In this document: positions 4,862 through 30,925 of the stretch, in pieces | Position numbering within the stretch: position 1 is the stretch's first letter | Layout of the letters: each line of letters begins with the position of its first letter | Assembly (NCBI RefSeq): GCF_000698145.1 | Contig: NZ_BAXB01000009.1 | Span: forward strand, 51,808 to 83,807 | Direction: 5' to 3' | Source: Geomicrobium sp. JCM 19039 | Lineage (GTDB): Bacteria > Bacillota > Bacilli > Bacillales > Marinococcaceae | DNA length: 32,000 nucleotides | Program-made: the position numbers and the translations under genes | The notes under the pieces: generated by a model | What the model saw: only the letters and a program-made list of their open reading frames with translations | Databases searched by the model: none | Told to the model about the DNA's origin: nothing

Positions 4862-4884
4862 TTTTCATTTACTTAACCACGTTT

Positions 4885-4906
4885 TTGACGCAAGATTGAC
4901 GCAAGA
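4885..4906 (+). repeat. Perfect tandem duplication TTGACGCAAGA x2 between the tRNA and the integrase 3' end
   Basis: Positions 4885-4895 and 4896-4906 are identical. Confidence 0.8.
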
Positions 4907-4913
4907 TTTTATT

Positions 4914-5775
4914 TTACCCCTCTTTTTTGGAAAAGAATTGCTCGAAAAGTTGGGCTGCCTCACGATCAACTTCAACAATTGAATGACCATATATATCCAT
5001 CGTCGTTCCGATCTTTGAATGACGCGCTCGAGAGCTGATGGATTTCATTGGGAGATTTTGAGAAATTAAAAACGTAATGGATATATGACGTAAATCATGA
5101 AACCGCACCTTCGGGAGTTGGTTTTTTTTAATGAATCGAATCCACCACTGGCTGATTGAATCTGGTCGAATGGGACGGCCATGATCATTGCAAAATAGAA
5201 ATACATTATCTGGATACTCCCACTTATCCCTCATGAGCATCTTCCACTTCTTTTTATCAAGAAGTAGTTTCTCGACCATCACCATAAGAGTCTCCGGTAT
5301 GGCTGCTACCCCCTCTAAATGATTCTTGGTAGGTATGATTTCTACCCCGCCTCCTGACAACTCACCTAGAGATTTATCAATTCGAATAGCACATTCGTCG
5401 ATTAATATACTGTTGTCGTCCAATGCCGCAATTTCTGCTTCCCTTGCTGATGTTATAAAAGCAATCCAAAAGAGAACTTGCTTATCTAATGGCTCTGTTT
5501 TTATCGCATCAATTAATGCCCAAATTTGCTCTTTGTTGTAGTTAATCTGAGCCTTGCTTGATCGTTTTGATGGCAACTTGATTTGCTATGTCCTCTTAAT
5601 TTAACTTGTAGGTATGGGCACATTCGAGCAAGCAGTTATAAGCTATGTACACAAGGTGGATGGATGACGGTGATAGAGCGCACGGTTTCTTATCTAAGCG
5701 CGCACTGTCTTTTTGTAAGTCAGCGATGTAGTTTACAAGGTGTCTCGTTTTGATGTCCTTGATATTTTTTGTGAC
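4914..5775 (-). pseudogene. Tyrosine recombinase / phage integrase, decayed (N-terminus missing, internal stop plus frameshift)
   Basis: The C-terminal catalytic domain is intact in one frame (4914-5576): TSAREAEIAAL (Arg), HDLRH (H-x-x-R), DIYGH (Tyr). The core-binding segment KDIKTRHLVNYIADLQKDSARLDKKPCALSPSSIHLVYIAYNCLLECAHTYKLN* lies in another frame (5599-5775) and ends in TAA. Nothing integrase-like is seen upstream of 5776. Confidence 0.8.
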
Positions 5776-6109
5776 TCAATCAAGGGAACAAAACAATCTT
5801 GGGGCCTTACACTGGATGAAAAACAACCGTGCTCCTCTTAGCGAAACAGCCACTCATTTTGGACGTAACCGTTCATTCACGATTGCGAATTGGAGGGGAA
5901 TCGTGGAGCGTGAGGGTGTTGTGGGCCTAGATCCAAAACCGAAAAACCCCCTTTCCATGTCGTATCGCTCAAGGGCAAAGAGAAAACTTTCTCCTTCACG
6001 TGAAGAACAATTGGAGCGGGGGAATAAACGTCTTCGATTGCAAAAACCGTGTATCGGACAGCGTCAAAGATTAAAAACCAGAGTAACACGAATCGCCTCT
6101 CCTTTTTGA
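5776..6109 (+). mobile_element. IS3-family OrfA (HTH) remnant, no OrfB; abuts or truncates the integrase 5' end
   Basis: LGALHWMKNNRAPLSETATHFGRNRSFTIANWRGIVEREGVVGLDPKPK...REEQLERGNKRLR resembles the IS3 OrfA pattern (HTH, then W..Y..EG..GL, then a leucine-zipper EE.L...N..L). No transposase catalytic ORF follows. Confidence 0.55.
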
Positions 6110-6176
6110 TAGGGGGTTTTCCTTTTAGAAAGGAGGGAACTATATTTTAAAAACGTTATAATTTGAGGGGTAATTT

Positions 6177-6385
6177 ATGAGTAGATTAGGACTAAGAAAC
6201 TTTGTTATTTTTATTTTATTAGGTGTTTTTTCATGACTGTCTTAAACATTATCTTGAATATTAGTCAAAATGAATCCATTAATATTCAATCAATAATGCC
6301 ATTTACTCTAATAGGATTAGGAATTGGATTTGCGTTAGCACTGCTTAGGTTTATTATTAAAGGTGATTTATGGGAGAAGAACTAA
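6177..6385 (+). CDS. Small 2-TM membrane peptide, split at a T6 run (20-aa and 50-aa pieces)
   Basis: The ATG at 6177 follows a gagggg SD and reads MSRLGLRNFVIFILLGVFS*. The overlapping ATG at 6233 reads MTVLNIILNISQNESINIQSIMPFTLIGLGIGFALALLRFIIKGDLWEKN*. No homologue recognised. Confidence 0.3.
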
Positions 6386-6540
6386 AAGGTATGGCGGAAT
6401 GACTATATTTCGACTTATTCCTGCCACATATACAGATCAATACGAGCCCCTTCTTCTTTGCGGAACGGGAGTTATTTTCTTTGATAAATAAGAACGAATG
6501 TTCTATATTAGAGTGAGATGAAAATATGGAGGCGGAGAGT

Positions 6541-7110
6541 ATGAGACCTAAATTAACAAAAACCCTTAATGTAGACGAGTTCAGTGACTTCTATTGGTTA
6601 AAAGAAGAATTACAATCTTTTTGTAGGAATAACGGAATTAGTGCATCAGGTTCAAAAATTGAGCTCTCTGAAAGGATTGAAACGTTTCTTGATACAGGGG
6701 AGATTAAAAAGGCACTTAGAAAAGCAAAATCCATAAGCAAAAAGGGTACTCAAAAAACGTTAAGTTTAAATACGGTCATTACAGTTGATCATCGATGTAG
6801 TCAAGATGTTCGTGCTTTTTTCAAGTCAGTTATTCCGAATTTTCATTTTTCTACGTATATACAAGACTTCTTTAAAAACAATGTGGGTAGTACATACCAC
6901 GAGGTTGTAAACGCATGGCATAAAGAGCAGGAGAGAATGAAAAACCCCTCCTACAAAAAGAAAATTGCTCCTCAGTTTGAGTACAATCAATTTACAAGAG
7001 ACTTCTTTGCAGATAAGAATAATGAAGGGAAGAATCGCGAGGATGCTATAGAGGCTTGGAATGCTATAAAAATACTACCAGGAAGTAATAAATACAAACC
7101 AACCCAATGA
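6541..7110 (+). CDS. SAP-domain-containing hypothetical protein
   Basis: The N-terminal LKEELQSFCRNNGISASGSKIELSERIETFL fits the SAP helix-extended-loop-helix motif; the remainder is a basic, uncharacterised domain. The ATG at 6541 follows GGAGG. Confidence 0.6.
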   Translation: MRPKLTKTLNVDEFSDFYWLKEELQSFCRNNGISASGSKIELSERIETFLDTGEIKKALRKAKSISKKGTQKTLSLNTVITVDHRCSQDVRAFFKSVIPNFHFSTYIQDFFKNNVGSTYHEVVNAWHKEQERMKNPSYKKKIAPQFEYNQFTRDFFADKNNEGKNREDAIEAWNAIKILPGSNKYKPTQ

Positions 7111-7148
7111 TCTATACATATCTATATATGAGAATCATTCTTATTAAG

Positions 7149-7184
7149 CCACAGCGAGGTTGGTCGTTGTGGTTTTCGGTTTTG
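7149..7184 (+). terminator. Terminator after the SAP-domain gene
   Basis: ccacagcg / cgttgtgg (one G-U pair), followed by ttttcggtttt. Confidence 0.6.
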
Positions 7185-7359
7185 CATTTTTTATGAACAA
7201 AGATATTGCAGGTGCTCGAGCCATGCTTTACCAAGTTTCTACTACTCGTTTTTAGATTTTCCATATGTATACGTTGCCTCTCTAAGTGGTGAATTAGTGT
7301 CGCCCCCCAAAAAAGTGATAGCTAAAACTAACGTTTGGGGTGTTTTTATTTTTAAAGCC

Positions 7360-7389
7360 CAAAAACCACGGTCTGCTAAGAGACCGTGG
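7360..7389 (-). terminator. Terminator of the membrane-protein gene
   Basis: ccacggtct / agaccgtgg with a 6-nt loop. The plus-strand A5 gives a U-tract on the minus strand. Confidence 0.75.
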
Positions 7390-7398
7390 AGTAATCCA

Positions 7399-7953
7399 CT
7401 AAATAATGAAGAGGGTACCGGTGATTAGCATCGATATACCTGTAACTGCACAAACGAAACTCGCTCCCCGTTCACTCATGAGTTGTCCAGCAGGCTTGTC
7501 TTTGTCCATTGCATAAAGTAGCGTTAGTGCTATCGCTATAATGATTGGCATGGCGATATATCCAATGTTTTGGTACAACCATGCATACGGGACAAAATGA
7601 ATCGTTACAGCTGTCGAGAATATTATAGGTATTGCCGTAAAGTTGCCTTTAATACTAAATAAAATTAATATAGGTAGCACCAACATTTGGGACAGTGACA
7701 GCATAATCGTTAATTGATTAATTAATTCTCCCCCTGGTTGATTGGTAAGCATTCCGAGACTAGCTGACACACCAAGGGCGATAGGTAAAGCAACCATACC
7801 TTGAAATAAGGTAGCGAGTGACGCTGTATATAAACTTACTTTTCTCCATAGTACTGCGCACACTACCCAAGTTACTCCGTATGCTCCTAAAAATGGAGCC
7901 CCACTATAGGTATGATTTGCAAGGTCAATTAAAGTACTCCTTAGCTCATCCAT
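7399..7953 (-). CDS. Polytopic membrane protein of unknown function (about 5-6 TM)
   Basis: 184-aa ORF that is almost entirely hydrophobic helices, with its own terminator. No motif recognised. Confidence 0.6.
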   Translation of the reverse strand: MDELRSTLIDLANHTYSGAPFLGAYGVTWVVCAVLWRKVSLYTASLATLFQGMVALPIALGVSASLGMLTNQPGGELINQLTIMLSLSQMLVLPILILFSIKGNFTAIPIIFSTAVTIHFVPYAWLYQNIGYIAMPIIIAIALTLLYAMDKDKPAGQLMSERGASFVCAVTGISMLITGTLFII

Positions 7954-8322
7954 GTAAAAATTATAGCATGTCGTCGAAATAAAATCTATAATTTGGTTAA
8001 ATTTTCTGAATATATCAGGTGCAATAATTAACAGAGAGGTCGGATATGAAAGAAGATTGGGTGCTGGTAGAGGTACGGGAATGACTATTTAAGATTGAAA
8101 CAAAGCAGGAAAATATCCTTCAGTTCTAAGAGGTCACAGCTGAAGAAGCATTGAGGGTCGTCAAGCGATATGTAAAGGCATATAAAATAGACACAAAAAA
8201 GCTCGGAAGATCGTAGTCTTTGAATTAAAACAGGTGTCGGGATAGCAGGAATTTTGGTTACAATGCTACTTTTTCGATGCCAATTTTAATCGCTGATTAC
8301 ACACCATAAGGAAGAAAGTTGC

Positions 8323-8630
8323 ATGATTAAGACATTACAGGGGTCGGCATTAGAGTTTTTGCTTAGCGTACTAAGTGTATTTCTGGCTGCACTAGTCGCT
8401 TATTTAACGACAAAAATCAAAAGGTATTTATATCTCGCGGCAGACCGTGCCAAACTTGGCATCATTGGCGCAATCACCATTGGAGCTGTGGAGCGTATAG
8501 AGGAGCAATTTTTCTGTAAATCCCGCGCTTTACATTTAAAGAGGCAACACAATCTGCATTGAATATTTTAAACCACTACGATATCGCGATTTCCGAAGAT
8601 CTCATCCGTACGTAGATTCGAGATAAATAA
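8323..8630 (+). pseudogene. LL-H-family phage holin remnant (frameshift near 8515-8525 and an in-frame TAG)
   Basis: N-terminal TM segment EFLLSVLSVFLAALVAYLTTKIKRYL...AVERIEEQFF. A second frame then reads FKEATQSALNILNHYDIAISEDLIRT*IRDK*, which matches the C-terminal pattern of LL-H holins as I recall it. Confidence 0.45.
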
Positions 8631-9015
8631 GACCGTATATAGAAGTGAAATGAACAAGTGGTGTAACTATGGTCCACAGTACATTTGTTGCAATTCCTTG
8701 GCCAGCAAATAATAGGCCGGGCACTGACAAAAGCGAGGCGAGGTGATAGTTTATGCTACTTTCAGCACGTTACAATGCGATCCTTCAGATCCATTTCACT
8801 ACGAGCCCCAACTATTGAATTTAGGGTATCAAATAAAGATTCGATGGATATACATAGCAAATAAATTCTGTAAAATTTAGTGCTTATGATAAAGTGAGTA
8901 TATCCATGATTTGTTCGTTTTCTGGGCTTTTATTTCTGTACCCCATAGCTGGGGTCTTATTTATGTAATAAGGAGGCACATGAGTGCATCCCCATTTATT
9001 TCCTTTTAGTATTTA

Positions 9016-9930
9016 TTAAAGAATTTTTCTGAACTTAGAGGACGCACCTCGCAGATTATCTGTGGTTTTGTTGATATTTTCAAACTCTGTAATCGCTTGT
9101 GAAATATGTTCTAAAGTTAGATAAAATTGATCTTTAGATAAATTTGTGGAATTTATTACTCTAGAAACTTCTTTTTTATTGGAGTACACAAGCTCTTCTA
9201 CATCTTGAATTGATCTTTTAGAATTATTCGCTAGTGTACGGATTTCATCCGCAATTACTGCAAACCCCTGGCCTTCATTTCCTGCTCTTGCAGCTTCAAT
9301 TGCTGCATTGAGCGCTAGGATGTCGGTCCTTATAGAAATTTCGCTTATCGTATTCACTATTCCCTCAATTTCATTAGAACTTTTCTGCAGGTTGTTGAGT
9401 ATTTCGCTATTCTTGTTCGATTGTTCGATTAACTCGCCAGTCAGTTCTATAATTTCTGAGGCTTTATCATGTCCTCTCTGAGCAATAGATAACACCGTAT
9501 TAGCCTCATTCACAATATTGGTTGTAATATCATTCACTGCATTTTCTCTGTAGGTTATGTCGGTTGCTATCTTTATTATTGATGTAACCACGCCAATCTC
9601 ATCTTTCACAGGTATATACGTTGCCTCTAATATAATTATTTTCCCATCTTTTTTGACACGTTTAATTTTGTCTTGAAATCGTTCTCCAGAACGAAGTCTA
9701 GTCCAAAATTCTTCATAGCTATCACTGAGTGTAAATTCTTTTTGACAAAGCTGCTCATGATGATTGTTTATTAATTCTTCAGGCGTATAACCTATGGTTT
9801 TGGAGAATATTGAATTGATCCAAGTGATCGTTCCTTCAGGTTGAAACTGAATCATAGCTAAAGAATTTTCCATTGCGGTTAACAAGTGTGCTTGTTCATG
9901 ACTTTGCATAGTGGCTAATTTTATTTGCAT
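9016..9930 (-). CDS. Soluble PAS-domain methyl-accepting chemotaxis (signalling-domain) protein
   Basis: 304 aa. The N-terminal PAS domain reads [31 protein letters not shown]...[14 protein letters not shown]. The MCP hairpin core reads [34 protein letters not shown]. No TM or HAMP segment. aagggag SD. Confidence 0.85.
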
Positions 9931-10023
9931 TCGTTACTCCCTTTTATAAAATAAATGAACAACAAAAATCTTACGGTAATAAATACCCATTCGGAGAAGT
10001 TTGCAAACAAATTATTCGTAAAT

Positions 10024-10049
10024 AAAAAACACGCCCTCGACAGGACGTG
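10024..10049 (-). terminator. Minus-strand terminator-like hairpin
   Basis: cacgtcc/ggacgtg-type stem with one mismatch. The plus-strand A6 gives a U-tract on the minus strand. Confidence 0.45.
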
Positions 10050-10118
10050 CCAAAAAAAGGAATTGGAGTGGACGTTACTAGGTTGGTCTATGCTTGTCCT
10101 TTATTCAGTAATGAACGA

Positions 10119-10144
10119 CAAAAACACGAGCAAATTCCCGTGTT
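10119..10144 (-). terminator. Minus-strand terminator-like hairpin
   Basis: aacacg / cgtgtt, followed on the minus strand by ttttt. Confidence 0.45.
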
Positions 10145-10203
10145 AAGTCGCCTCATATCGCAATGATATTAACGGCAATGATTGATCACTTCAAAAAATA
10201 GCC

Positions 10204-10263
10204 CTAACGCCAGTACGTGAACGAAATCAACTGATTACACTCCATACACTCATTTTTAATCAT
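10204..10263 (-). CDS. 19-aa CxxC mini-ORF (possible truncated zinc-ribbon or CXXC-20-CXXC-like gene)
   Basis: GAAGGAG, 5 nt spacer, ATG, then MIKNECMECNQLISFTYWR*. A shifted continuation reads GLFFEVINHC. Two terminator hairpins lie downstream. Confidence 0.25.
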   Translation of the reverse strand: MIKNECMECNQLISFTYWR

Positions 10264-10604
10264 CCAAACTCCTTCAAGTGCTACTTATTGATTTCAGATT
10301 TGGTTTTTTTGTGATTAAGGTTGTGCTCGAGACACCCTACACGATGCTGCGGGAATATCATCGGCAGTAAATACTAGCACATATTTGTACGAGGTGTTAG
10401 TTTGTTATCTCCTAAGGTGCACCCTCTTAATAATAAGAATGTGCGTTCTCATTACGTGCAATTGAGTACTTTTATACAAATTGAGCAACTCTAGTTCAAC
10501 TATGTCTTCTATTCAGTACTTTTGATTGGAACGAAAGGCGGTGACGCCTGCGGAAGAAGGACCGAAACTATGCCTGGCAAGTCATAAGACCGAAGAGCCT
10601 AGGC

Positions 10605-10790
10605 GGTTCATCGGTGGCAAATGTTTCGCCACTGATGTCGCCCTTGTGCTCCGGAGTATAAAGAAAACACGGTGGACATCTTTTGGCCACCGATGTTGCC
10701 CTTATAGGCTGGACTACAAGCATCCGCCTGTAGTGGGAAGCAACAACCAATAGCGCAAATTAGAAAACTAAGGTTCATCCTATATAATCC
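10605..10790 (-). repeat. Partial copy, on the minus strand, of the repeat element seen at 22332-23620 (terminus + header + 2 hairpin modules)
   Basis: The reverse complement of 10718-10790 aligns with 22332-22408: GAT(C)TATATAGGrTGAwC ... ATTTGCG ... CTACAGGCG. Modules at 10659-10717 and 10605-10658 match the 58-nt unit. Confidence 0.8.
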
Positions 10791-10983
10791 ATAAATCAGT
10801 AAGAAATTCAACAGAATTTTGTTTGTTCAATTTATATGCACTTTTTCTATACGATGTAAAAAGAGGAACATTTCAGTTTGCCCAGTACCTTACAACATCG
10901 TAAGCTGACGTAAGATCAATCAATTCAGCACAGTTCATCTAGGATGTAAAATGTGTGATAAAGGTATAGGTTAAGGAGGCAGT

Positions 10984-11325
10984 ATGATGAGAAAAGCAGT
11001 GATTGGCATTAGTGTAGCAGTGATTCTAGGAATTGCTGCATTTATTGGGATGTATTACTCGTTGAGTGATATGACTAGAGCGAACATCAATCCGTTTATT
11101 CAAGAAGAATATTGGTATGTTCAAGTTGATGAAGATGGCATAGTTGCTGAAGATGAGCAAGGAACTGTCTATTATGAGCTACCTGCAATGAATGAAAATG
11201 GAGACGAAAAGGATATTGAGTTTACAGCACTCAGCGAATTAAGAGAAGGTGCGTTTATTCAATTAACGATGAAAGAAGGCTTTGTGATGACGTATGAAGA
11301 GGTAGGGGAAGAGGACGTTCCTTAA
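10984..11325 (+). CDS. YxeA-family (DUF1093) small exported protein
   Basis: N-terminal TM anchor, then NPF..EEYWYVQV...YYELPAMNENGDEKDIEF...L..GAFIQL, the pattern typical of YxeA. GGAGG SD; the second ATG at 10987 has better spacing. Confidence 0.65.
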   Translation: MMRKAVIGISVAVILGIAAFIGMYYSLSDMTRANINPFIQEEYWYVQVDEDGIVAEDEQGTVYYELPAMNENGDEKDIEFTALSELREGAFIQLTMKEGFVMTYEEVGEEDVP

Positions 11326-11882: not shown

Positions 11883-11920
11883 AATGAAATGAATCCACCA
11901 TATGGTGGATTCATTTCATT
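11883..11920. terminator. Perfect 38-nt palindrome between convergent genes (bidirectional terminator candidate)
   Basis: aatgaaatgaatccaccata | tatggtggattcatttcatt. The 3' arm overlaps the stop codon of the minus-strand lipoprotein gene. Confidence 0.6.
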
Positions 11921-19050: not shown

Positions 19051-20066
19051 ATGTTTACGGCCATTTTTGGCTCACTTGAACTCGGGCTATTATATGGAAT
19101 TATGGCATTAGGTGTCTATCTATCGTTTCGGGTGTTAAACTTTCCCGATTTGACGGTTGACGGTAGTTTTGTCACGGGAGGTGCGGTAGCTGCCATTCTG
19201 ATTACGAGTGGGTACTCTCCGGTTCTCGCGACTGTGGCGGCTGTCGCCGCCGGATTTCTTGCCGGGACAATTACGGGGACGCTTCATGCCAAAGGCAAGA
19301 TTAACCCGTTGTTATCCGGCATTCTCATGATGATCGCTTTGTATTCCATCAACTTGCGAATTATGGGGAACAGCCCAAACATTCCGTTGATGCGAGAAGA
19401 TACGATCATGACGATGTTTGGCAATGCTTGGGCTTCACTTCCGTTTGATGGGTGGATGGCAAGCTTGTTTGGTGCATTGAATGTTGGTTTCCAGCCGAGC
19501 ACGTGGGGGATTTTATTGCTCGCGTTCGTGATCGTCATCTGTGTGAAGCTCTTTACGGATTTCTTTTTAAAGACGGAAGTTGGTCTTGCTGTTAGAGCGA
19601 CGGGTGATAACCCGAGAATGATTAGCTCTTTATCAGCGAATACAGACCGTTTAAAAATCATCGGGCTTGGGATATCGAATGGATTTGTTGCATTGTCAGG
19701 TGCAGTGATTACCCAGTATAGTAGTTTTGTTGATGTGAACATGGGTATTGGGATGATCATTATTGGTCTTGCTTCAGTAATTATTGGAGAATCAATTTTT
19801 GGTAAAGGTTCAATTTTCAAAATTACGCTTGCGGTCATCGTTGGTGCGGTTATTTACCGTATTGTCGTGGCACTCGCGCTTAGGTTGGTTTTTTGGAAAC
19901 CGGTGATATGAAACTCATTACTGCTGTCATTGTAATCGGAGCGCTCGTTATTCCGAAAATGATCGATGATGGGAAAGAGCGAAGGCGTAAATATAATAAA
20001 GCAAGAAAGATTAAACGAGAATACGAAGGGGAGGAGAGCGTTGCTTCAACTAAGTCAGATTTATAA
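19051..20066 (+). CDS. ABC transporter permease; frameshift near 19887-19894
   Basis: 286-aa polytopic ORF. After the ttgg/T6 break it continues as GFLETGDMKLITAVIVIGALVIPKMIDDGKERRRKYNKARK...*, with stop at 20064-20066. Confidence 0.8.
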
Positions 20067-20841
20067 AGTGTTTAATGAAGGCACGATTGATGAAAAAGCA
20101 GCGCTGGAACGCGTCTACCTTACACTAGAACCAGGGGATTTTGTGACCGTAATTGGCAGTAACGGTGCGGGGAAATCAACAATGATGAATCTAATAGCCG
20201 GTAATTTGACTCCTGATGTAGGCACTGTCAAAATTGATGGCAAAGATGTGACCCGTCAAAAAGAACATGAACGATCAAGATTAATTGGTCGAGTGTTTCA
20301 AGATCCCATGGCAGGGACCGCTCCGTCAATGACCATTGAGGAGAATATGGGAATGGCGTATAGCCGGACGCATAAACGTTCATTTTTCTCAATGGGCGTG
20401 ACGAAGAAAAGAAAACTTTTATTTCGAGAGCAACTTGCGACACTAGGTCTCGGGCTAGAAGATCGACTGAACGCGAAAGTTGGGTTTTTGTCAGGGGGAG
20501 AGCGTCAAGCGTTATCGCTCCTCATGGCCACGTTTACGAACCCATCGATCTTGCTGCTGGATGAACATACCGCCGCACTCGACCCGTCTCGCGCCAAGCT
20601 GATTACAGAGAAGACGAAAGAGATCGTTGCAGGGACAGAGCTGACAACGCTTATGGTCACCCACAATATGCAGCAAGCGTTAGATCTAGGCAATCGGCTA
20701 ATTATGATGGATAAAGGTCAGATTATATTTGAAGCTTCAGGCGACCAGAAGAAAGAGCTCACGGTGGAACAGTTGTTACATGAGTTTCAAAAGATTCGTG
20801 GCGATCATCTCGCAAATGACCGTGCGGTACTCAGTTCATAA
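20041..20841 (+). CDS. ABC transporter ATP-binding protein
   Basis: TTG at 20041 follows GGGGAGGAG. Walker A GSNGAGKST, signature LSGGERQ, Walker B LLLDEHTAALD. The upstream part of the track ORF overlaps the permease tail. Confidence 0.88.
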   Translation: MLQLSQIYKVFNEGTIDEKAALERVYLTLEPGDFVTVIGSNGAGKSTMMNLIAGNLTPDVGTVKIDGKDVTRQKEHERSRLIGRVFQDPMAGTAPSMTIEENMGMAYSRTHKRSFFSMGVTKKRKLLFREQLATLGLGLEDRLNAKVGFLSGGERQALSLLMATFTNPSILLLDEHTAALDPSRAKLITEKTKEIVAGTELTTLMVTHNMQQALDLGNRLIMMDKGQIIFEASGDQKKELTVEQLLHEFQKIRGDHLANDRAVLSS

Positions 20842-20887
20842 GATAGAATAAGAGAAACGTACTTTCAAAGAAGGGAACGGCGATACT

Positions 20888-21777
20888 TTGTCTCAAAAAG
20901 TCAATGCACGCTCCATGATCTTTACAATCTATGGGGATTACATTCATCACTATGGAGGAAAAGTTTGGGTTGGGACACTCATTCGCCTTTTAGAAGCCTT
21001 CGGACATAATGCACAGGCAGTGCGAGCTGCGATATCTAGAATGCAAAAACAAGGGTGGGTGCAAGCTGAAAAAAGAGGCAATCGCAGTTTTTATTCACTA
21101 ACCGCCCAAGGTCAAAAACGGATGCGAGAAGCAGGGAAGCGTATTTTCAATGATGTGGACAAAGAATGGGACGGAAAATGGCGTATGCTTATTTATTCGA
21201 TTCCAGAAGATCAACGCAAGCTCCGAGATGAATTACGAAAGGAATTAGGGTGGAGTGGTTTTGGCTCACTGACGCATAGTTGTTGGCTCACACCCCATCG
21301 ATTAGAAGATCAAGTTCAGCAGCTTTCCAAGCGCTATGGAATTGCAGAATATATCCATTTTTTTACAGGTGATCATCAAACGCCAGAACGCAACGACGAG
21401 CTCGTTGAAAAATGTTGGGACCTTGCCGCAGTGAACGAACGTTATCGACAGTTTATTGATGAATACAGTAAGCGGTTCATCATTACGCGAAACGAAATTA
21501 AGAACCAAAAGATGAACCGAGAACAATGCTTTGTAGAGCGCACGAAACTTGTCCACGAGTATCGGAAGTTTCTTTTTATAGACCCAGAACTTCCTGAACC
21601 GCTGCTCCCAGATTACTGGTGGGTGATCATGCGTCTTCCCTATTTCATGAATACTATGAAGTGTTAGCCGAGCCAGCAAATGAGTTTTTTGAATCGGTGT
21701 ACAAAGAAGATAATGATGCAAAAGACAGTGTGAAGCGTGGCAAAGGATACCGGGAACCTTTGTCTATAAAGGAGTAA
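20888..21777 (+). CDS. paaX: Phenylacetic acid degradation operon repressor PaaX; frameshift at G-run 21621-21623
   Basis: SMIFTIYGDYIHHYGGKVWVGTLIRLLEAFGHNAQAVRAAISRMQKQGWV...RSFYSLTAQG parallels E. coli PaaX. The C-terminus continues in another frame as GDHASSLFHEYYEVLAEPANEFFESVYKED...SIKE* (stop 21775-21777). Confidence 0.85.
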
Positions 21778-21780
21778 TTC

Positions 21781-22206
21781 ATGGAGCCCTTTACTATTCG
21801 AGATTTCAAACAAGTCGCCAATCACAATCATCCGCCTCCTGCGTGTGATACGCATATGAATGTTACAGTACAACGTGCAGAACATGGGAAATCGACGGGC
21901 ATTTGGTCGCCAGATGAGCGGTTTGTAAACGGCAATGGGGTTGTTATGGGCGGTTTGTTGTCTGGCGCTACCGATATTCTGATGGCGTATGCACTTGCAT
22001 CAACACTTGAGGACAACCAAAGCTTTGCAAGTGTAGACCTTCATACAACATTTCACCGTCCTATTTTCCCAGGTAATGTAACTGTAAATGCTGAAGTCGA
22101 TAAACTGGGCAAGAAGATGGCTTACGTGACTGCGGAGTTATGGCAAAACGATAAAAAAGCGGCATCGACTGTGTCGTCTGTCTTCATCCAAACGAATCAA
22201 CAGTGA
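21781..22206 (+). CDS. paaI: PaaI-family hotdog-fold thioesterase
   Basis: 141 aa with NGNGVVMGGLLSGATDILMAYALAS and DLHTTFHRPIFPG. AAGGAG SD. Directly downstream of paaX. Confidence 0.75.
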   Translation: MEPFTIRDFKQVANHNHPPPACDTHMNVTVQRAEHGKSTGIWSPDERFVNGNGVVMGGLLSGATDILMAYALASTLEDNQSFASVDLHTTFHRPIFPGNVTVNAEVDKLGKKMAYVTAELWQNDKKAASTVSSVFIQTNQQ

Positions 22207-22408
22207 GGGCCATGAATGTACGAATCCCTCGCTGTTTTTCTGTGTGGGCAGGCAAGTATGATAAGTAAAGTGTTGTGGTGAATCTATAATGGGTATATAG
22301 CGGCTTTTATCAATTAAGACGACGTCCAAAACGATCTATATAGGGTGATCTTTAAATCTTCCTGATTTGCGTTGTTGGTTTTTGCTTTCCGCTACAGGCG
22401 AATTCTTG

Positions 22409-22636
22409 CACTCCAGAGCACAAGTGCAACATCGGCGGCCAAAAGACGCCCGCCGTGTTTTCTATGCACTCCAGAGCACAAGTGCAACATCGGCGGCTAA
22501 AAGACGCCCGCCGTGTTTTCTATGTACTCCAGAGCGCAACGGACATCGGTGGCTAAAAAACAGCCACCGTTTTTTCTTTATACTCCAGAGCAGAAGGCAG
22601 ACGCGGTTCACGTTTCTGCCTACTGGCTACGGTGTG
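22409..22636 (+). repeat. Tandem array of four 56-58-nt hairpin modules
   Basis: Units start at 22409, 22467, 22525 and 22581 with yACTCCAGAGC. Units 1 and 2 differ at one base (22440 vs 22498). Each unit carries a hairpin followed by a T-rich tract. Confidence 0.9.
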
Positions 22637-22924
22637 TGGAAAGATGTCCAAATGCCCCATATATTCATTTATGTGACACTTGGGAAAGAAAAATCATCAT
22701 TTTAAACGTGAATACGCCCATAAACGGAGTCAACGGTCACTAATCGTGATATATGTGACCGTTGGGTGCCGAAAGTGCCCGGTTTGAGGGCTGGATTGTC
22801 ACATAAGTAAGAGGTCATCACATGCTTTCGCCAGGTGGTGACCCTAGGTCACGACTTTTTAGCCTTCGGCATACGTTTCCGTGTTGACCGCAACCCTTAC
22901 AGTGACGAACAACGATCGGCAACG

Positions 22925-23000
22925 AAGGTAAGGGCAACATCGGCGGCCAAAAGACGCCCGCCGTGTTTTCTATAGTAGTCCAGACGATAAGGGCAACATC
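22925..23000 (+). repeat. Second, partial array of the same module inside the element
   Basis: 22934-22973 is identical over 40 nt to 22426-22465. It is followed by a truncated unit, TAGTCCAGACGATAAGGGCAACATC. Confidence 0.85.
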
Positions 23001-23646
23001 CCCTTTCACTGCGCTTCGGTGCTGCACCTAAAGACGTCGGATTTTGAACGTGAAACGAAAGAATGGGTTCCAAAGAGTATCGATTGGAATCAGATTCACT
23101 CATATGTGATCGGTTTGCCTCGTTCTGATTCCAATTGATCGACATCTCGTTCCAAACTTCCGTTTATGGAATCAGATTCAAAAGTTTTATAGAAAATAAC
23201 CAACAATCTAGCCCGAAAGTGATGTTCATTAGGATGTATGCCCTGTCCCAACCCCGAGTTGAAAAACCCAAAATTCTTATCGGCGCGAGTCGCGCTGAAT
23301 CGAGACCGATTTCGGTTCGGCCCCACTAGGCCGACAGATCGTATGGTGTTAGGTTTAATTTAGACTGAGCGTAAGTTTTACGAAATGAGTACTAAAATCG
23401 CTAAAAAGAGCAAACTTGATTGCAGAAAGTGAAAACTAGCGCGCACAATGCGAATGACGCTCCCTTTCCCTACTCGGGATAACACCATCGAAGTGATTCC
23501 ACTACGCAAAAGGGGTATGAAGACATTTTTGATCATAACGGTCAAATTGCATGAAATGACGATGTTATCTCTATATTGTGGCGTCTAACGAATTTCTTTC
23601 GTTCATCCTATATAGATCGCAGCCCTCTCCCTAAGTGTTATAAATC

Positions 23647-23686
23647 GAAAAAGCGAACCCTAGCATCGGATGGGGTTCGCTTTTTC
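23647..23686. terminator. Bidirectional terminator (ends the minus-strand E2 gene)
   Basis: aaaaa-gcgaaccc ... gggttcgc-ttttt. Confidence 0.8.
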
Positions 23687-23700
23687 TCATCGTCTCTCCC

Positions 23701-24883
23701 TCATTTGAGTGAAGTAAGGAGGCGATATGGCTTTTCAAGTAAGCTTTTCATCCGGTTCGTAAACATCACCGCTGTGTAGCCATCGGCAACACGGTGATCA
23801 AAAGAGAGTGACAGGTTAAGCATCGACCTTATGACGATTGTTTTGTTACGCACAACCGGTGTATCTTCGATCTGATGAAGAGCGAGAATGGCGACTTCGG
23901 GGTGGTTAATAATCGGTGTTGCATACACCCCTCCGATCGGACCGACATTGCTAATCGTAAAAGTGCCTCCTCGCAAGTCGCTCATTTCACACTCGTTGTT
24001 TTGCGCTTTTTCGGTGAGTTGTTTCATCTCTTCATGCAGATGTGGAATGCTCTTTTGTTGTGTATCCTTTATAACAGGAACAATGAGACCCTCATCGGTA
24101 TGTGTCGCGATTCCGCAGTTTACCGTCGGCTCTAGCGTAATTTCCTCGCGTTCTTCATCTAACTTTGAATTAAAGACAGGGAACTCTAATAGGGCAATTG
24201 ATACGGCTTTTAGAAAAAATGCCGTGAGAGAAAGATGAACTCCGTCTGCTTTTAACTCATCTTTTACTTCAATTAACGCGCTTACATCAATTCGGTCAAA
24301 GTGAGTAACGTGTGGAATCGTGTAAGCGGAAGTTGTCATTTTTTTTGCAATTTGTTTTCTGCGTCCTTTGAAGGGCAGGCTTTCTTTATTCGTGTGCGTA
24401 TCCAATAGTGTGCGATTGGTTGTTGGATTGTTGCTACTTTGACGTGTACGTTCAATATCTTCATTCGTAATTCGTTTGTTCTTACCCGTTCCTTCGATCG
24501 TTTCAATCTCGATGCCATATGAACGAGCAAGTTTACGCGTGTACGGTGCTGCTTTTACATTCCTCATCCGAAAAAGACGTGAAGGTGTAGGGAGGAGGAG
24601 CCCTTCGCAGCATCTTGTGATGGTGAGGGAGAAGGTGTTGTCTTTTTGGAGTGATCCTCAATCACAATAATGGTGGTACCTGTTTTCACGACGTCTCCCT
24701 CTGCAACAGGATGGTAACGACTTTTCCGGCAACCGGTGAAGGCAGGTCAGCGGTCACTTTATCAGTCTGGACACTCAAAACCGGCTGGTCAGCTGAGACC
24801 GAGTCCCCGACTTTTACAAAGACGGTGTCCACAGTACCTTCAGTAATGCCCTCACCAATGTCGGTTAATTTCATTTCAAACAT
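23701..24883 (-). CDS. 2-oxo acid dehydrogenase E2 (dihydrolipoamide acyltransferase); two frameshifts as assembled (near 24706 and 24585-24600)
   Basis: The lipoyl domain reads MFEMKLTDIGEGITEGTV...VLSVQTDKVTADLPSPVAGKVVTIL. The next frame reads VAEGDVVKTGTTIIVIED followed by a Pro/Ser linker. The third frame holds the E3/E1-binding motif AAPYTRKLARSYGIEIETIEGTGKNKRIT and the catalytic LSLSFDHRVADG. Confidence 0.85.
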
Positions 24884-28761: not shown

Positions 28762-28861
28762 TTTTTAAAAGTTGTTGAATAACTCTGTTTTTCTAAGCAT
28801 AGGTGTGTTACTATATCAATCAATAACAAATTCGAAATTCGTACAATTTAATATTTAAAAC

Positions 28862-29138
28862 GTTGAAGAGGATCAGTAGTTATTCATACTTTCTTTACAG
28901 AGAGCCGTTCGTGCTGAGAGACGGTGAGAAAGCGAATAATGAACTCCCCTCGGAGTGTGATAGTGAATGTATATCAAGTAGCTATCGCCGGTCGGATTAT
29001 CATCTGACCGTTACTAACAGGCGCTTTTAGCGCAATGAGCCGGTTGCTATTTAGAACCGGGAAATTAGGGTGGTACCGCGGAATAACCTTTTCGCCCCTT
29101 TGGTTAAATGTCCAATGGGGAGAAAAGGTTATTTTTTT
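28862..29138 (+). promoter_or_regulatory. T-box leader (tRNA-sensing riboswitch) controlling ilvB-ilvN-ilvC; probable Leu (CUC) specifier
   Basis: Stem I elements are present: AGTA, CAGAGAG, GCTGAGAG, GGTGAGAA. GAA-CTC at 28941-28946 sits in the specifier-loop position. The T-box sequence AAATTAGGGTGGTACCGCG is at 29062-29080. The terminator is at 29082-29138. Confidence 0.85.
29082..29138 (+). terminator. T-box terminator hairpin
   Basis: aataaccttttcgcccc / ggggagaaaaggttatt (17 bp, 1 mismatch), followed by T7. Confidence 0.85.
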
Positions 29139-29196
29139 ATCGTAGACAGATGGATGCTTTGGAGGAAGAGAAATTGTATGAAGGAGGAAGATGGAG

Positions 29197-30925
29197 ATGG
29201 GCACGAATCTCGAAGTGCAAGATGATGAACGGAGAACTGACCGAAACAACGAAGAGATGAATGGCAGCCAAATGGTTCTCGAGTCACTGGCAGAAGAAGG
29301 TGTGGAAATCATTTTTGGTTATCCTGGCGGAGCCATCCTGCCGACGTATGACGAGATTTACAAAAAAGGGATCCGTCACATTTTAGCAAGACACGAGCAA
29401 GGCGCAATACACGCTGCTGAAGGTTATGCAAGAGTGTCAGGGAAACCAGGTGTTTGCATCGTTACGTCGGGTCCAGGGGCGACAAATGTTGTGACTGGCA
29501 TTGCCGATGCGATGATTGACTCATTGCCGCTTGTCGTCATTACCGGTCAAGTTGCAACGAATGTCATCGGTACGGATGCTTTTCAAGAGGCGGATATGAT
29601 CGGTATTACGATGCCAATCACGAAGCATAATTTTCAAATCCGAAATGTCGCAGATATCCCTGCGGTGATGAAAGAAGCTTTTCACATTGCGACAACTGGC
29701 CGTCCAGGTCCTGTACTCATTGATTTGCCCAAAGATGTATCCATCGATCGAGGAAATTTTACGTATCCAAAAAGGGTGCAACTACCCGGGTATCAACCAA
29801 CCGTTCAACCTAATCGACTGCAAATCAAGAAATTAAAAGCGGCGATTGAGAAAGCCAAACGTCCTGTCATACTTGCTGGTGCTGGCGTTCTCCATGCAGG
29901 CGGTGCAAAGGAACTTGAACGTTTTGCAAAAACACAAAACATTCCGGTATCATCAACGTTGCTCGGTCTGGGAGGATTTCCTGCTCGTGATGATTTGAGC
30001 CTTGGAATGGCAGGAATGCACGGCTTGTACGCATCTAACATGGCGTTGCATGAATCAGATTTACTCATCAACATTGGGGCACGCTTTGATGATCGTCTTA
30101 CGGGTAAACTGGAACACTTTGCTCCATACGCGACGGTTGCACATGTCGATGTAGACCCTGTTGAAATCGGAAAGAACATTACGACTGACATTCCGATTGT
30201 AGGGGATGCAAAACGAGCGTTACAGCTACTGAATGAAACAACTGATCCACTAGGTCGATTCGATGAATGGCACGAGCGGTTAGGTGAATACAAAAGCAAC
30301 TATCCACTCTGGTATGAAACGGATCACGAAACACTCAAGCCGCAAGCCCTCATGGAAATGGTTTACGAGGAAACAAATGGCGACGCGATCGTTACGACAG
30401 ACGTCGGTCAACATCAAATGTGGGCAGCCCAGTATTACAAATTCAATGAACCCAATCACTGGGTCACATCTGGGGGCTGGGAACGATGGGCTTTGGTTTT
30501 CCAGCAGCCATCGGCGCACAGTTTGCTGAACCCGACAAAACGGTTGTAGCCGTCGTAGGAGATGCAGGTTTTCAGATGACCCTCCAGGAGATGTCGATTC
30601 TTCAAGAACTGCATCTTCCTGTAAAGATTGTGATTGTAAACAATGCCTCGCTTGGATGGTAAGGCAATGGCAAGAATTGTTCCACGGAGAACGGTATTCT
30701 CATTCACTGTTTCCGATTCAACCCGATTTCACGAAACTATCGGAAGCGTATAACATTCCAGGATATCGTATCGACGACCCAAGTGAAGCAAGAACGGTTC
30801 TAAAAAAAGGGCTAGCGATTGACGGACCTGTATTGTTCGATTTCAGAGTGACAGGTCAAGAAAATGTGTACCCGATGATTGCACCTGGTAAAGGTCATCA
30901 GGAAATGGAGGGAATTGCGCCGTGA
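29197..30925 (+). CDS. ilvB: Acetolactate synthase large subunit; two frameshifts as assembled (G5 run 30472-30476 and near 30655-30656)
   Basis: MGTNLEV... (the ATG at 29197 lies 9 nt after GGAGG, like B. subtilis MGTN), then [37 protein letters not shown]. After WVTSGG the text continues in a second frame as [35 protein letters not shown]...NNASLG, then in a third frame as MVRQWQELF...[17 protein letters not shown]. Confidence 0.9.

What the first reader, a model, noticed from the sequence alone, without database searches (positions are those of the whole stretch)
22332..23620. 1.29-kb non-coding element bounded by ~19-bp inverted termini between the paa and PDH-like operons
The whole paaI-to-E2 gap contains no credible ORF. 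It is delimited by CGATCTATATAGGGTGATC (22332-22350) and, on the other strand, CGATCTATATAGGATGAAC (23620-23602); the first 13 nt are perfect and 17/19 match overall. The same terminus (TATATAGGATGAAC, 14/14) also starts the partial copy at 10773-10790. Inside are a conserved ~75-nt header, two arrays of 56-58-nt hairpin modules, iterated TATGTGAC motifs and further short direct and inverted repeats. This architecture (terminal inverted repeats, no transposase, internal structured repeats, more than one locus) fits a non-autonomous mobile element or a structured-RNA locus. I do not recognise it as a described family. Caveat: the TIR core CTATATAG is itself palindromic, and 13-mers can match by chance in 32 kb.
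Basis: seen in the sequence. Interest (0 to 1): 0.72.

Follow-up and report, generated by a model that had tools for sequence, protein, structure and literature searches.

The report
Mosaic non-coding repeat nest in Geomicrobium
The 1.5-kb gene-free gap is a patchwork of strain-variable, multi-copy non-coding repeats known so far only from Geomicrobium, built around a ~0.6-kb composite element with a variable number of terminator-like hairpin modules; it is not one 1.29-kb transposon with inverted ends.

Summary
The sequence features are real. The window comes from Geomicrobium sp. JCM 19039. The paaI-E2 gap has no credible ORF, no Pfam hit and no Rfam hit. The 19-nt inverted pair, the ~56-nt header, the 56-58-nt hairpin modules and the second partial copy near 10.7 kb are all present and far beyond chance.

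The proposed 1.29-kb unit bounded by terminal inverted repeats does not hold. A full second copy (L021) shares only window 22325-22926 with this locus. Two related strains keep the left terminus, header and modules at this same locus, but lack the right-hand 19-mer. That 19-mer lies in a 155-bp strain-specific segment.

Module number at the locus is 1, 3 or more than 3 in the three strains, and one difference is exactly two modules. Four more copies of the module-plus-tail part lie on four other JCM 19039 contigs.

The real unit is a composite element of about 0.5-0.6 kb. It has a fixed 5' terminus, a header, n oriented terminator-like hairpin modules and a 320-nt tail. It has no inverted ends and no clear target duplication. 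The rest of the gap holds other short repeats that also occur at other loci.

Best reading: a new, lineage-restricted family of mosaic interspersed repeats, like BOX or BIME elements in architecture. How it spreads is unknown. A functional RNA role is not excluded. Interest is modest.

The parts
22200..22242 (+). Context: paaI stop codon inside a 10-bp-stem hairpin followed by UUUUUCU. This is the paa operon's own terminator-like site, upstream of the repeat.
   Evidence: -15.4 kcal/mol. The sequence is conserved in JCM 19037 and JSM 1781026.
22325..22350 (+). Fixed 5' terminus of composite element A. GTCCAAAA precedes the 19-mer CGATCTATATAGGGTGATC (22332-22350).
   Evidence: Similarity with L021 begins at GTCCRAAACGATC. 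Similarity with the second window locus begins at TATATAGG. The 19-mer is 100% identical in JCM 19037.
22351..22406 (+). Header of about 56 nt, conserved in all copies that carry modules.
   Evidence: Identity to JCM 19037 is 96%.
22407..22580 (+). Three full 56-58-nt modules (U1 22407-22464, U2 22465-22522, U3 22523-22580). Each has ACTCCAGAGC, a short variable stretch, ACATC, a GC-rich hairpin and a U-rich run, so each looks like an intrinsic terminator on the + strand.
   Evidence: TRF. Covariance-model hits of 71-82 bits. U3 is called a terminator by the scan. Hairpins fold at -12 to -15 kcal/mol. Pair statistics.
22582..22606 (+). Half module U4 (ACTCCAGAGCAGAAGGCAGACGCGG). It is fused to the tail instead of to a hairpin.
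   Evidence: L021 has the same junction.
22607..22926 (+). Tail of element A. It is 82% identical to L021 and ends at ...CGGCAACGAAG.
   Evidence: The same tail is implied by four spurious ORFs of JCM 19039.
22637..22665 (+). Sigma-70-like hexamers TGGAAA-17-TATATT inside the tail. They are conserved in L021 and in the DNA implied by the spurious ORFs.
   Evidence: (9 of 12 matches). Promoter function is not shown.
22670..22805 (+). Nested inverted repeats. The outer pair is TATGTGAC (22670-22677) with GTCACATA (22798-22805). The inner pair is CAACGGTCAC (22731-22740) with GTGACCGTTG (22755-22764), a perfect 10-bp repeat with a 14-nt spacer.
   Evidence: The arms are conserved in L021 while the spacer differs.
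22838..22862 (+). Terminator-like hairpin GTGACCCTAGGTCAC followed by a T run. It is present in this copy only.
   Evidence: It is not conserved in L021.
22927..23030 (+). A second short array. Module E lacks its 5' part and keeps a full hairpin (to 22974). Half module F (22975-23030) is of the AGTCCAG...ATAAGGGCAACATC type that also occurs at 10.7 kb.
   Evidence: In JCM 19037 and JSM 1781026 the half module at this end of the array has the same junction as F (GGTGCTGCAC and the sequence after it), though its 5' part is of the ACTCCAGAGC type.
22506..23027 (.). A block of about 520 bp that is present here and absent at the same locus in JCM 19037 and JSM 1781026. Both of its ends lie inside module sequence.
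23079..23139 (.). Hairpin with a stem of about 17 bp (ATCGATTGGAATCAGA...TCTGATTCCAATTGAT).
   Evidence: a chance miRNA-like hit. Conserved in JCM 19037 and JSM 1781026.
23150..23230 (.). Short repeat 'Y'. Another copy lies in an unrelated intergenic region of JCM 19037 and JSM 1781026.
   Evidence: L019 16169-16248, 69% over 81 nt, E=3e-6. Sequence read.
23291..23414 (.). Short repeat 'X'. Another copy lies beside element A in L021.
   Evidence: L021 12339-12479 against L016 10998-11135, E=1e-9. The Logan contig L002 breaks at 23425, next to its edge.
23467..23621 (.). A 155-bp segment absent from JCM 19037 and JSM 1781026. It is flanked by the CT-rich direct repeats CCCTTTCCCTA and CCCTCTCCCTA. 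This is either an insertion or a deletion in the other lineage.
23601..23619 (-). Solo copy of the 19-mer (CGATCTATATAGGATGAAC), identical to the L021 terminus. It is not followed by a header.
23647..23686 (.). Context: a 16-bp-stem bidirectional terminator of the E2 (2-oxoacid dehydrogenase) operon, just outside the repeats.
   Evidence: -26.2 kcal/mol.
10596..10790 (-). Second, partial copy. It has the 14-mer (10773-10786), the header, module G (10661-10718) and module H (10603-10660). It lies upstream of a decayed yolD-like gene and a chemotaxis receptor gene.
   Evidence: The Logan contig L017 breaks at 10551.

Best explanation
The paaI-E2 gap of Geomicrobium sp. JCM 19039 is a nest of non-coding interspersed repeats found so far only in Geomicrobium. 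It is not one element.

**Composition (shown).** The core is one copy of a composite element, here called A, at window 22325-22926.
- It is about 0.6 kb here and about 0.49 kb in L021.
- It has a fixed 5' terminus that includes the 19-mer, then a ~56-nt header.
- A variable number of 56-58-nt modules follows. Each module is an oriented GC-rich hairpin followed by a U-rich run.
- A half module and a ~320-nt tail complete it. The tail carries promoter-like hexamers and nested GTGAC inverted repeats.
- To the right of A lie a second module stump, a long hairpin and two other short repeats that also occur at other loci (Y and X). A 155-bp strain-specific segment there happens to carry a solo 19-mer in inverted orientation.

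**Behaviour (shown).**
- The family is multi-copy and dispersed.
- The arrays change length by whole modules between strains.
- Blocks are gained or lost with their end points inside module sequence.
- The hairpin is maintained across copies.

**Mechanism (inferred).**
- The family is a selfish or neutral mosaic repeat of the BOX, BIME or NIME kind.
- It was dispersed by a trans-acting function that has not been identified.
- It is now reshuffled mainly by homologous recombination, slippage and gene conversion between modules.
- When transcribed in the + orientation, the modules would act as intrinsic terminators or 3'-end stabilisers.
For: **Identity of the genome.** Window proteins are exact matches to Geomicrobium sp. 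JCM 19039.

**Non-coding, and not a described RNA.**
- ORFs and Pfam give nothing.
- Rfam gives nothing at the gathering threshold or at E<=10, in three loci.

**Multi-copy and dispersed.**
- A second locus lies in the window.
- L021 holds the 19-mer, header, one module, a half module and the tail, at 82-84% identity.
- Four spurious 'hypothetical proteins' read through the module-plus-tail part. They lie on four different JCM 19039 contigs, and two of them are 'partial' at contig ends.
- Logan contigs of the same strain break at 22435, 23425 and 10551, at or near repeat edges.

**Boundaries.** Similarity between the window and L021 runs from 22325 to 22926 only.

**Strain variation at the orthologous locus.**
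- JSM 1781026 has 3 full modules. JCM 19037 has 1, differing by exactly 116 bp, which is 2 x 58. JCM 19039 has 3, then the half module U4, the tail, and modules E and F.
- U1 is only 86% identical between orthologues, while the 19-mer is 100% and the header 96%. This fits conversion between modules.

**Hairpin kept.** 92% of cells are paired. Pair 30-46 is U-A in 7 copies and C-G in 4, and is never broken. U3 meets the terminator scan.

**Restricted distribution.**
- The covariance model finds modules only inside these loci, across about 140 kb of Geomicrobium DNA.
- The plasmid and phage collections give nothing. IMG/VR gives only L021. JGI metagenomes give nothing real.

**Precedent.** The composite A-Bn-C architecture and its strain-variable B number are those described for pneumococcal BOX elements (PMC3049150).
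Against: - **No proof of mobility.** No empty site was recovered for element A itself, so past mobility is inferred from dispersal only.
- **No known mechanism.** There are no inverted ends, no clear target duplication and no candidate transposase.
- **Few copies at DNA level.** Only four loci could be read as DNA, one of them in three strains. The other four are known only through ORF translations.
- **Signs that could mean function.** These include strict module orientation, hairpin maintenance, and promoter-like hexamers conserved in every copy seen. Two compensatory pairs also occur in a 6-bp helix at the 3' end of the tail.
- **Structure signal.** The header plus array folds better than shuffles, with z about -3.9. 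Tandem hairpins alone would produce this.
  - The genome-wide scan pattern was too strict and returned only chance hits.
  - Copy number and distribution in other genera are therefore not properly known.
  - The metagenome and viral scans also needed exact matches, so they would miss diverged relatives.
Confidence: 0.55

Rival explanations
1. A functional RNA locus. One version has the 19-mer region starting a transcript whose header is followed by several attenuator or terminator modules, each preceded by a conserved single-stranded ACUCCAGAGC site for a trans-acting factor. Another version has the tail encoding a small RNA of about 190-260 nt, made from its own TGGAAA-17-TATATT promoter. The family would then be a set of paralogous RNA genes.
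For: - All modules point the same way and have a U-rich run only on the + strand.
- The ACTCCAGAGC motif sits at a fixed distance from each hairpin.
- The hairpin is maintained.
- Promoter-like hexamers are conserved in every copy for which this part is known.
- Two compensatory pairs occur in a tail helix.
- At two of three loci a gene follows in the same direction: the chemotaxis receptor gene in the window and a metallo-beta-lactamase/HHH gene in L021.
Against: - The 19-mer has no conserved -35 element, and its TATATA lacks the conserved final T. The scan does not call it a promoter.
- Tail folding is not better than shuffles, with z from -0.8 to -1.7.
- The tail's terminator hairpin is not conserved in L021.
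- At this locus nothing lies downstream except a convergent operon.
- Downstream genes at the other loci are 0.4-0.7 kb away and unrelated to each other.
- Module number and whole blocks differ between close strains, which is unusual for a tuned regulator.
- Orthologous conservation of the header (96%) and of U1 (86%) is no higher than the 95% of the flanking DNA.
- There is no Rfam match.
Confidence: 0.2
2. A single 1.29-kb non-autonomous transposon (a MITE-like element) spans 22332-23620, bounded by 19-bp terminal inverted repeats. The other copies and the orthologues in relatives are truncated or deleted derivatives.
For: - The inverted pair matches at 17 of 19 positions and is far beyond chance.
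- The right 19-mer is identical to the L021 terminus.
- The two blocks missing from the relatives could both be deletions, one between direct repeats and one between modules.
Against: - No second copy ends at an inverted 19-mer. L021 stops matching at 22926, and the copy at 10.7 kb stops after two modules.
- The sequence inside the right 19-mer is unrelated to the header.
- Two relatives lack the right terminus yet keep the left part in place.
- Parts of the interior (X and Y) occur on their own at other loci.
- No target duplication flanks 22332 and 23620.
Confidence: 0.07
3. An invertible DNA switch. The two inverted 19-mers would be crossover sites for a site-specific recombinase that flips the 1.25-kb segment, which carries promoters and terminators.
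For: - The 19-bp sites are inverted and have an AT-rich TATATA core.
- The segment holds oriented terminator-like and promoter-like sites.
- In L021 the 19-mer pairs with a degenerate inverted copy only 10 nt away.
Against: - Independent Logan contigs from the same strain's reads cross each 19-mer in the same configuration as the window, with no branch there.
- No recombinase gene lies nearby.
- The segment sits between the 3' ends of two convergent operons, so there is nothing for it to switch.
- The relatives lack one of the two sites.
Confidence: 0.03
4. Decayed coding sequence, or an assembly or sequencing artefact of a low-coverage Ion Torrent draft.
For: - The genome is a ~21x Ion Torrent assembly.
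- Neighbouring genes such as E2 are split by frameshifts.
- Part of the second locus is a decayed yolD-like gene.
Against: - An independent assembly of the reads reproduces the flanks: 25352-23425 at 100% and 19889-22435 at 99.9%.
- The same header and modules are present in the better JSM 1781026 assembly, where E2 is intact.
- No frame has a Pfam hit.
- Reading frames are not kept between copies.
Confidence: 0.03

Closest known systems
BOX elements of Streptococcus pneumoniae (boxA, a variable number of boxB, boxC)
   Same: - Both are non-coding composite interspersed repeats with a fixed head and a tandem array of ~45-58-nt modules.
- Module number varies between copies and strains, and the array is followed by a different tail.
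- Both have extensive predicted secondary structure.
- Both are confined to one species group and are found between genes (PMC3049150).
   Different: - No sequence relationship was shown.
- Element A is larger (0.5-0.6 kb).
- Its modules are oriented terminator-like hairpins.
- Head and tail are not inverted repeats of each other.
- No matching insertion sequence is known.
- Copy number appears much lower: at least 7 copies seen, against more than 100.
REP/BIME elements of enterobacteria and NIME or Correia elements of Neisseria
   Same: - All are mosaic intergenic repeats built from palindromic units.
- The units can attenuate or terminate transcription and stabilise 3' ends (background in PMC3049150).
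- All cluster at operon ends.
   Different: - REP units are 20-40 nt and tagged by GTAG or CGTC directly beside the stem (PMC3733652 abstract). They often alternate in orientation.
- Here the units are 56-58 nt, all in direct orientation, and the tag is not conserved.
- Correia elements have 26-bp inverted ends. Element A has none.
MITEs (miniature inverted-repeat transposable elements), including RUP and bcr1
   Same: Non-coding, multi-copy, structured and intergenic, with presence or absence varying between strains.
   Different: The defining inverted ends and target duplications were looked for and not found for element A or for the 155-bp segment.
Antitoxin RNA arrays of type III toxin-antitoxin systems (ToxI-like), and CRISPR leader-repeat arrays
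   Same: A leader is followed by a short tandem array of structured units.
   Different: - No toxin or cas gene follows the array.
- The whole 58-nt unit is repeated, so there are no unique spacers.
- Each unit carries its own terminator-like hairpin.

Membership tests
   The two 19-mers match at 17 of 19 positions. None of 100 shuffles gave two matches.
   L021 shares only 22325-22926. The 10.7-kb copy ends after two modules. Relatives lack the right end.
   The flanks read ...CGTCCAAAA|CGATC and GATCG|CAGCCC, with no direct repeat.
MITE (element A, 22325-22926) | Terminal inverted repeats | tested here: not met
   The best local alignment of the two ends scores 15, against 12.6 +/- 2.2 for shuffles. 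81 of 500 shuffles scored as high.
MITE (element A, 22325-22926) | A transposase in the same genome with matching ends | not testable with these tools
Composite interspersed repeat of the BOX/BIME kind (architecture only) | Several distinct sub-sequences arranged in a regular order, with a tandemly repeated middle unit of variable number | tested here: met
   The order is head, n modules, tail. n is 1 in L021, 2 in the copy read through by P0128 and 3 in the window. At the orthologous locus n is 1, 3 and more than 3 in three strains.
Composite interspersed repeat of the BOX/BIME kind (architecture only) | Many dispersed copies in intergenic DNA of one lineage | tested here: inconclusive
   At least 6 loci are seen in JCM 19039: two in the window and four on other contigs. 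One more is in L021, whose source strain is unknown. The total could not be counted. Metagenome and viral scans found none elsewhere.
Pneumococcal BOX family proper | Sequence homology to boxA, boxB and boxC | not tested
Homology is not claimed.
REP/BIME | Palindromic unit of 20-40 nt with a GTAG or CGTC tag beside the stem | tested here: not met
   The units are 56-58 nt. GTAG occurs only in some modules, 22 nt from the stem. CGTC is not conserved (definition from the PMC3733652 abstract).
Intrinsic (Rho-independent) terminator, per module | GC-rich stem-loop directly followed by a U-rich run | tested here: met
   U3 passes the scan with 8 pairs and TTTTTTCTTT. U1, U2, E, G and the L021, JCM 19037 and JSM modules have 6-8-pair stems of -12 to -15 kcal/mol followed by GUGUUUUCU. 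Actual termination was not tested.
Any Rfam 15 family | Score at or above the gathering threshold | tested here: not met
   Only chance miRNA-like hits to palindromes appeared.
Type III toxin-antitoxin locus | Toxin ORF directly downstream of the repeat array | tested here: not met
   There is no ORF with a Pfam hit downstream.
Invertible promoter switch | Both orientations present in reads, and a recombinase nearby | tested here: inconclusive
   Logan contigs cross both 19-mers in one orientation only. Raw reads could not be examined.

The most novel reading that the evidence does not exclude
Element A would be a mobile, self-contained transcription cassette of a kind not yet described. It would combine a fixed end, a stack of intrinsic terminators that insulates it from upstream transcription, and its own outward-reading promoter driving a GTGAC-hairpin RNA. 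It would spread without inverted ends or target duplication, by a one-ended or otherwise unconventional mechanism. Equivalently, it could be a new family of structured small RNAs specific to Geomicrobium.
Probability: 0.12. Interest if true: 0.6.

Novelty: new member of a known kind. Interest (0 to 1): 0.33.

Why it matters
**For this genome.**
- The result explains a 1.5-kb gene-free gap and several contig breaks in the draft assemblies.
- It flags at least four annotated 'hypothetical proteins' of JCM 19039 as translations of a repeat: GAK11735.1, GAK11165.1, WP_238545011.1 and WP_238545060.1.

**More generally.**
- It adds a lineage-restricted composite repeat, with variable-number terminator-like modules, from a poorly studied haloalkaliphilic Bacillales genus.
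- Such arrays are handy strain-typing markers. They can also alter termination and the stability of neighbouring transcripts.

**Limits.** It does not open a long-standing question. It would become more interesting only if the tail or the modules proved to be functional RNAs, or if the way it spreads turned out to be new.

Tried and rejected
1. **Genome-collection scan** with ACATCGGYGGCN{8,12}CCRCCGTKTTT.
   - It returned 13 single hits in unrelated taxa, which I take to be chance.
   - It missed even JCM 19037, because one base in the stem differs.
2. **Six-frame concatenated pseudo-protein** of both loci against the 5.8-billion protein index. Nothing scored.
3. **The single spurious ORF** (window 22367-22702) against the 1.84-billion representatives. 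This did work.
4. **Fetching the DNA of the four JCM 19039 copies** through their spurious ORFs. None is on record.
5. **Metagenome scans** with a tail-core pattern and a two-module pattern. The first found nothing and the second gave one chance hit in GC-rich coding DNA.
6. **Plasmid and phage BLAST**. No hits.
7. **tRNA-derived origin.** MAFFT placed the header and modules opposite two tRNA genes of the paralogous locus. ARAGORN and Rfam find no tRNA-like signal. Rejected as a forced alignment.
8. **PyrR-binding site.** The modules share UCCAGAG with it. Only 7 nt match and Rfam gives no hit. Rejected.
9. **parS, dif, the LexA box and replication-terminator sites.** These were compared by eye with consensus sequences recalled from memory. 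None fits.
10. **Small peptide in the second locus** (MIKNECMECNQLISFTYWR). It is a fragment of a decayed yolD-like gene.
11. **An uninterrupted target site** (TCCRAAACGATCGGCARCGAAG) for element A. Not found.
12. **GC-skew switch at the locus**. None.
Full report
**Source and quality of the sequence**

- Exact protein look-ups place the window in Geomicrobium sp. JCM 19039, on a contig of 137,361 bp. PaaI is GAK12561.1.
- The strain's draft is a ~21x Ion Torrent/Newbler assembly (PMC4064037). This explains split genes such as E2 and calls for care with ORF arguments.
- Independent Logan contigs built from the same strain's reads (run DRR017903) reproduce the flanks of the region. Window 25352-23425 is matched at 100% and 19889-22435 at 99.9%.

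**Checking the observation**

- *No coding.* The gap 22207-23700 lies between paaI (+) and a 2-oxoacid dehydrogenase E2 gene (-). It has no ORF over 112 aa, and that ORF runs through the tandem repeat. Ten ORF translations have no Pfam match at E<=1.
- *No known RNA family.* Rfam finds nothing here at the gathering threshold or at E<=10.
They match at 17 of 19 positions, and no shuffle gave two matches.
- *14-mer.* TATATAGGRTGAWC occurs three times, against 0.00 expected.
- *Tandem array.* Tandem Repeats Finder reports a 58-nt unit in 3.4 copies at 22403-22596. Further modules lie at 22915-23030.
- *Second locus.* The header plus two modules recur on the other strand at 10624-10766, at 80% identity.

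**Anatomy of a module**

- Each module reads ACTCCAGAGC, then about 10 variable nt, then ACATC, then a GC-rich hairpin, then GUGUUUUCU.
- The hairpins fold at -12 to -15 kcal/mol. U3 passes the terminator scan.
- The U-rich run exists only on the + strand, and all modules point the same way.
- Over 11 copies from four loci and three strains, 92% of cells are paired. Pair 30-46 is U-A in seven copies and C-G in four, and is never broken.
- The copies are related by duplication. This therefore shows that the hairpin is maintained, not that many independent compensatory events occurred.
- A covariance model of the module finds no further copy in about 140 kb of Geomicrobium DNA outside these loci. 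The module is therefore not simply the local form of terminator.
- paaI has its own terminator-like hairpin at 22200-22242. The E2 operon has a strong bidirectional terminator at 23647-23686.

**Finding the real unit**

A scan of the viral contig collection with a two-module pattern found L021 (IMGVR_UViG_2609460133_000001). There the element lies beside, not within, prophage genes. Next to it are a metallo-beta-lactamase/HHH gene, a DUF3006 gene and a frameshifted alcohol dehydrogenase gene.

On its minus strand L021 carries, in order:
- GTCCGAAA followed by CGATCTATATAGGATGAAC;
- the header;
- one full module;
- a half module;
- a ~320-nt tail.

L021 matches window 22324-22493 at 84% and 22523-22927 at 82%. 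It matches nothing to the right of 22927, apart from module-to-module hits and the solo 19-mer at 23601-23619. The shared unit is therefore window 22325-22926, which I call element A.

The tail contains:
- sigma-70-like hexamers TGGAAA-17-TATATT at 22637-22665;
- nested inverted repeats: TATGTGAC with GTCACATA, and a perfect CAACGGTCAC-N14-GTGACCGTTG.

A's two ends are not inverted repeats of each other. I saw no target duplication.

**More copies in the same genome**

- The spurious 112-aa ORF was searched against 1.84 billion representative proteins. It hit four short 'hypothetical proteins'.
- All four are from JCM 19039 and lie on four different contigs. Two are marked 'partial', meaning they sit at contig ends.
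- Their sequences, and an 88-aa cluster member, are translations of modules, half module and tail; the 88-aa member also reads through the end of the header. Their frames differ from one another. This argues against coding.
- Logan contigs of the strain break at 22435 (inside the array), at 23425 and at 10551. All three are at or near repeat edges.
- JCM 19039 therefore holds at least six loci, with L021 as a further one whose source strain is unknown.

**The orthologous locus in relatives**

JCM 19037 (L016) and JSM 1781026 (L028) are about 95% identical to the window in the flanking genes.

| Feature at the paaI-E2 locus | JCM 19039 (window) | JCM 19037 | JSM 1781026 |
|---|---|---|---|
| Left 19-mer and header | present | present (19-mer 100%, header 96% identical) | present |
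| Full modules before the final half module | 3, then U4, tail, E | 1 | 3 |
| Window 22506-23027 (~520 bp) | present | absent | absent |
| Window 23467-23621 (155 bp, right 19-mer) | present | absent | absent |

- JCM 19037 differs from JSM 1781026 by exactly 116 bp, which is two modules.
- The 520-bp block present only in JCM 19039 has both end points inside module sequence.
- U1 is only 86% identical between orthologues, which points to exchange between module variants.
- The stretch 23028-23466 is only about 84% identical, against 95% for the flanks.
- Parts of that stretch recur at other loci. Y (23150-23230) recurs in L018 and L019. X (23291-23414) recurs beside element A in L021.
- The 155-bp segment is flanked by the CT-rich direct repeats CCCTTTCCCTA and CCCTCTCCCTA. 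This fits either an insertion or a deletion in the other lineage, and I cannot polarise the event.
- After the right 19-mer the sequence is unrelated to the header.

**The second locus in the window**

- The copy at 10596-10790 (-) has the 14-mer, the header and two modules. It then continues into unrelated sequence.
- Beyond that lie a decayed yolD-like gene (about 10130-10440) and a chemotaxis receptor gene.
- This stretch is a low-GC region beside tRNA-Arg and a short ORF (220 aa) with an integrase domain.

**Interpretation**

- *What is shown.* This is a dispersed, non-coding, composite repeat whose arrays expand and contract by whole modules. It is reshuffled by recombination between modules, and it sits in a gap that has collected several other short repeats.
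- *What is inferred.* In architecture and behaviour it resembles composite interspersed repeats such as pneumococcal BOX (boxA, n x boxB, boxC) and BIME or NIME elements (PMC3049150). I do not claim homology to any of them.
- *Not a MITE.* The defining inverted ends and target duplication were tested and not met.
- *Not REP.* Unit size, tag and orientation all differ.
- *Mode of dispersal.* It is unknown.
- *Likely effect on the host.* The modules probably cause termination or 3'-end stabilisation when they are transcribed in the + orientation. This is predicted, not shown.

**Rival readings**

- *Functional RNA (0.2).* It is kept alive by module orientation, hairpin maintenance and the conserved promoter-like hexamers. 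Two compensatory pairs in a tail helix also favour it.
  - Against it, the tail folds no better than shuffles.
  - The 19-mer is a poor promoter.
  - Nothing lies downstream at this locus.
  - Close strains differ by whole blocks.
- *Invertible switch (0.03).* It is unlikely because independent contigs cross both 19-mers in one configuration, and the relatives lack one of the two sites.
- *Artefact or decayed gene (0.03).* It is unlikely because the better JSM 1781026 assembly carries the same header and modules.

**Distribution**

- The plasmid and phage collections gave nothing.
- IMG/VR gave only L021.
- JGI metagenomes gave nothing real.
- My single scan of the genome collection used too strict a pattern and returned only chance hits. 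The family's full range and copy number therefore remain to be measured.

**Verdict**

It is wrong about the unit, which is not a 1.29-kb element with inverted ends.
- It is a new family of a known kind of element. Interest is modest.

Noticed in passing
window 23701-24883 (-); L016 11402-12455; L028 10159-11340: The E2 gene is split in JCM 19039 into a 65-aa lipoyl part and a 288-aa part. It is split differently in JCM 19037, and it is intact (393 aa) in JSM 1781026. These are most likely Ion Torrent homopolymer frameshifts rather than real pseudogenes.
   Followed up: partly
window 4785-5576 and about 5000-11000: tRNA-Arg (TCT) is directly followed by a short ORF (220 aa) with a phage-integrase domain and about 6 kb of low-GC DNA (0.37-0.39 against 0.45). 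This is probably an integrated island. No att repeat was found.
   Followed up: partly
window about 10130-10440 (-): This is a decayed yolD-like gene upstream of a PAS/MCP chemotaxis receptor gene. At the locus of the 61%-identical receptor homologue in JCM 19037 and JSM 1781026, a longer yolD-like reading frame is preceded by a GAAC-N4-GTTC (LexA-box-like) site and two tRNA genes.
   Followed up: partly
window 28854-29102 (+): A T-box leader (124 bits) lies upstream of the 452-aa ORF at 29191-30549.
   Followed up: no
window 11883-11920: A perfect 19-bp palindrome (AATGAAATGAATCCACCAT/ATGGTGGATTCATTTCATT) lies between two convergent ORFs. It is probably a bidirectional terminator.
   Followed up: no
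JCM 19039 proteins GAK11735.1, GAK11165.1, WP_238545011.1 and WP_238545060.1: These annotated 'hypothetical proteins' are translations of the repeat (modules plus tail) in shifting frames. They should not be treated as genes.
   Followed up: yes
L021 12116-12172: In L021 the 19-mer forms one arm of a palindrome of about 50 nt, paired with a degenerate inverted copy (15 of 19 positions) 10 nt away. The window's left terminus has at most a badly decayed counterpart.
   Followed up: partly
L021 11442-11462 and window 23587-23607: The stretch AACGAATTTCTTT(C/A)GT(T/G)CATC abuts the solo 19-mer in the window. It recurs in L021 about 200 nt downstream of element A, without the 19-mer. This is another sign of mosaic shuffling.
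   Followed up: no
L028 position 1 (roughly window 13000): The 598-kb contig of JSM 1781026 starts just upstream of the paa enoyl-CoA hydratase gene. A repeat may lie at that contig end.
   Followed up: no
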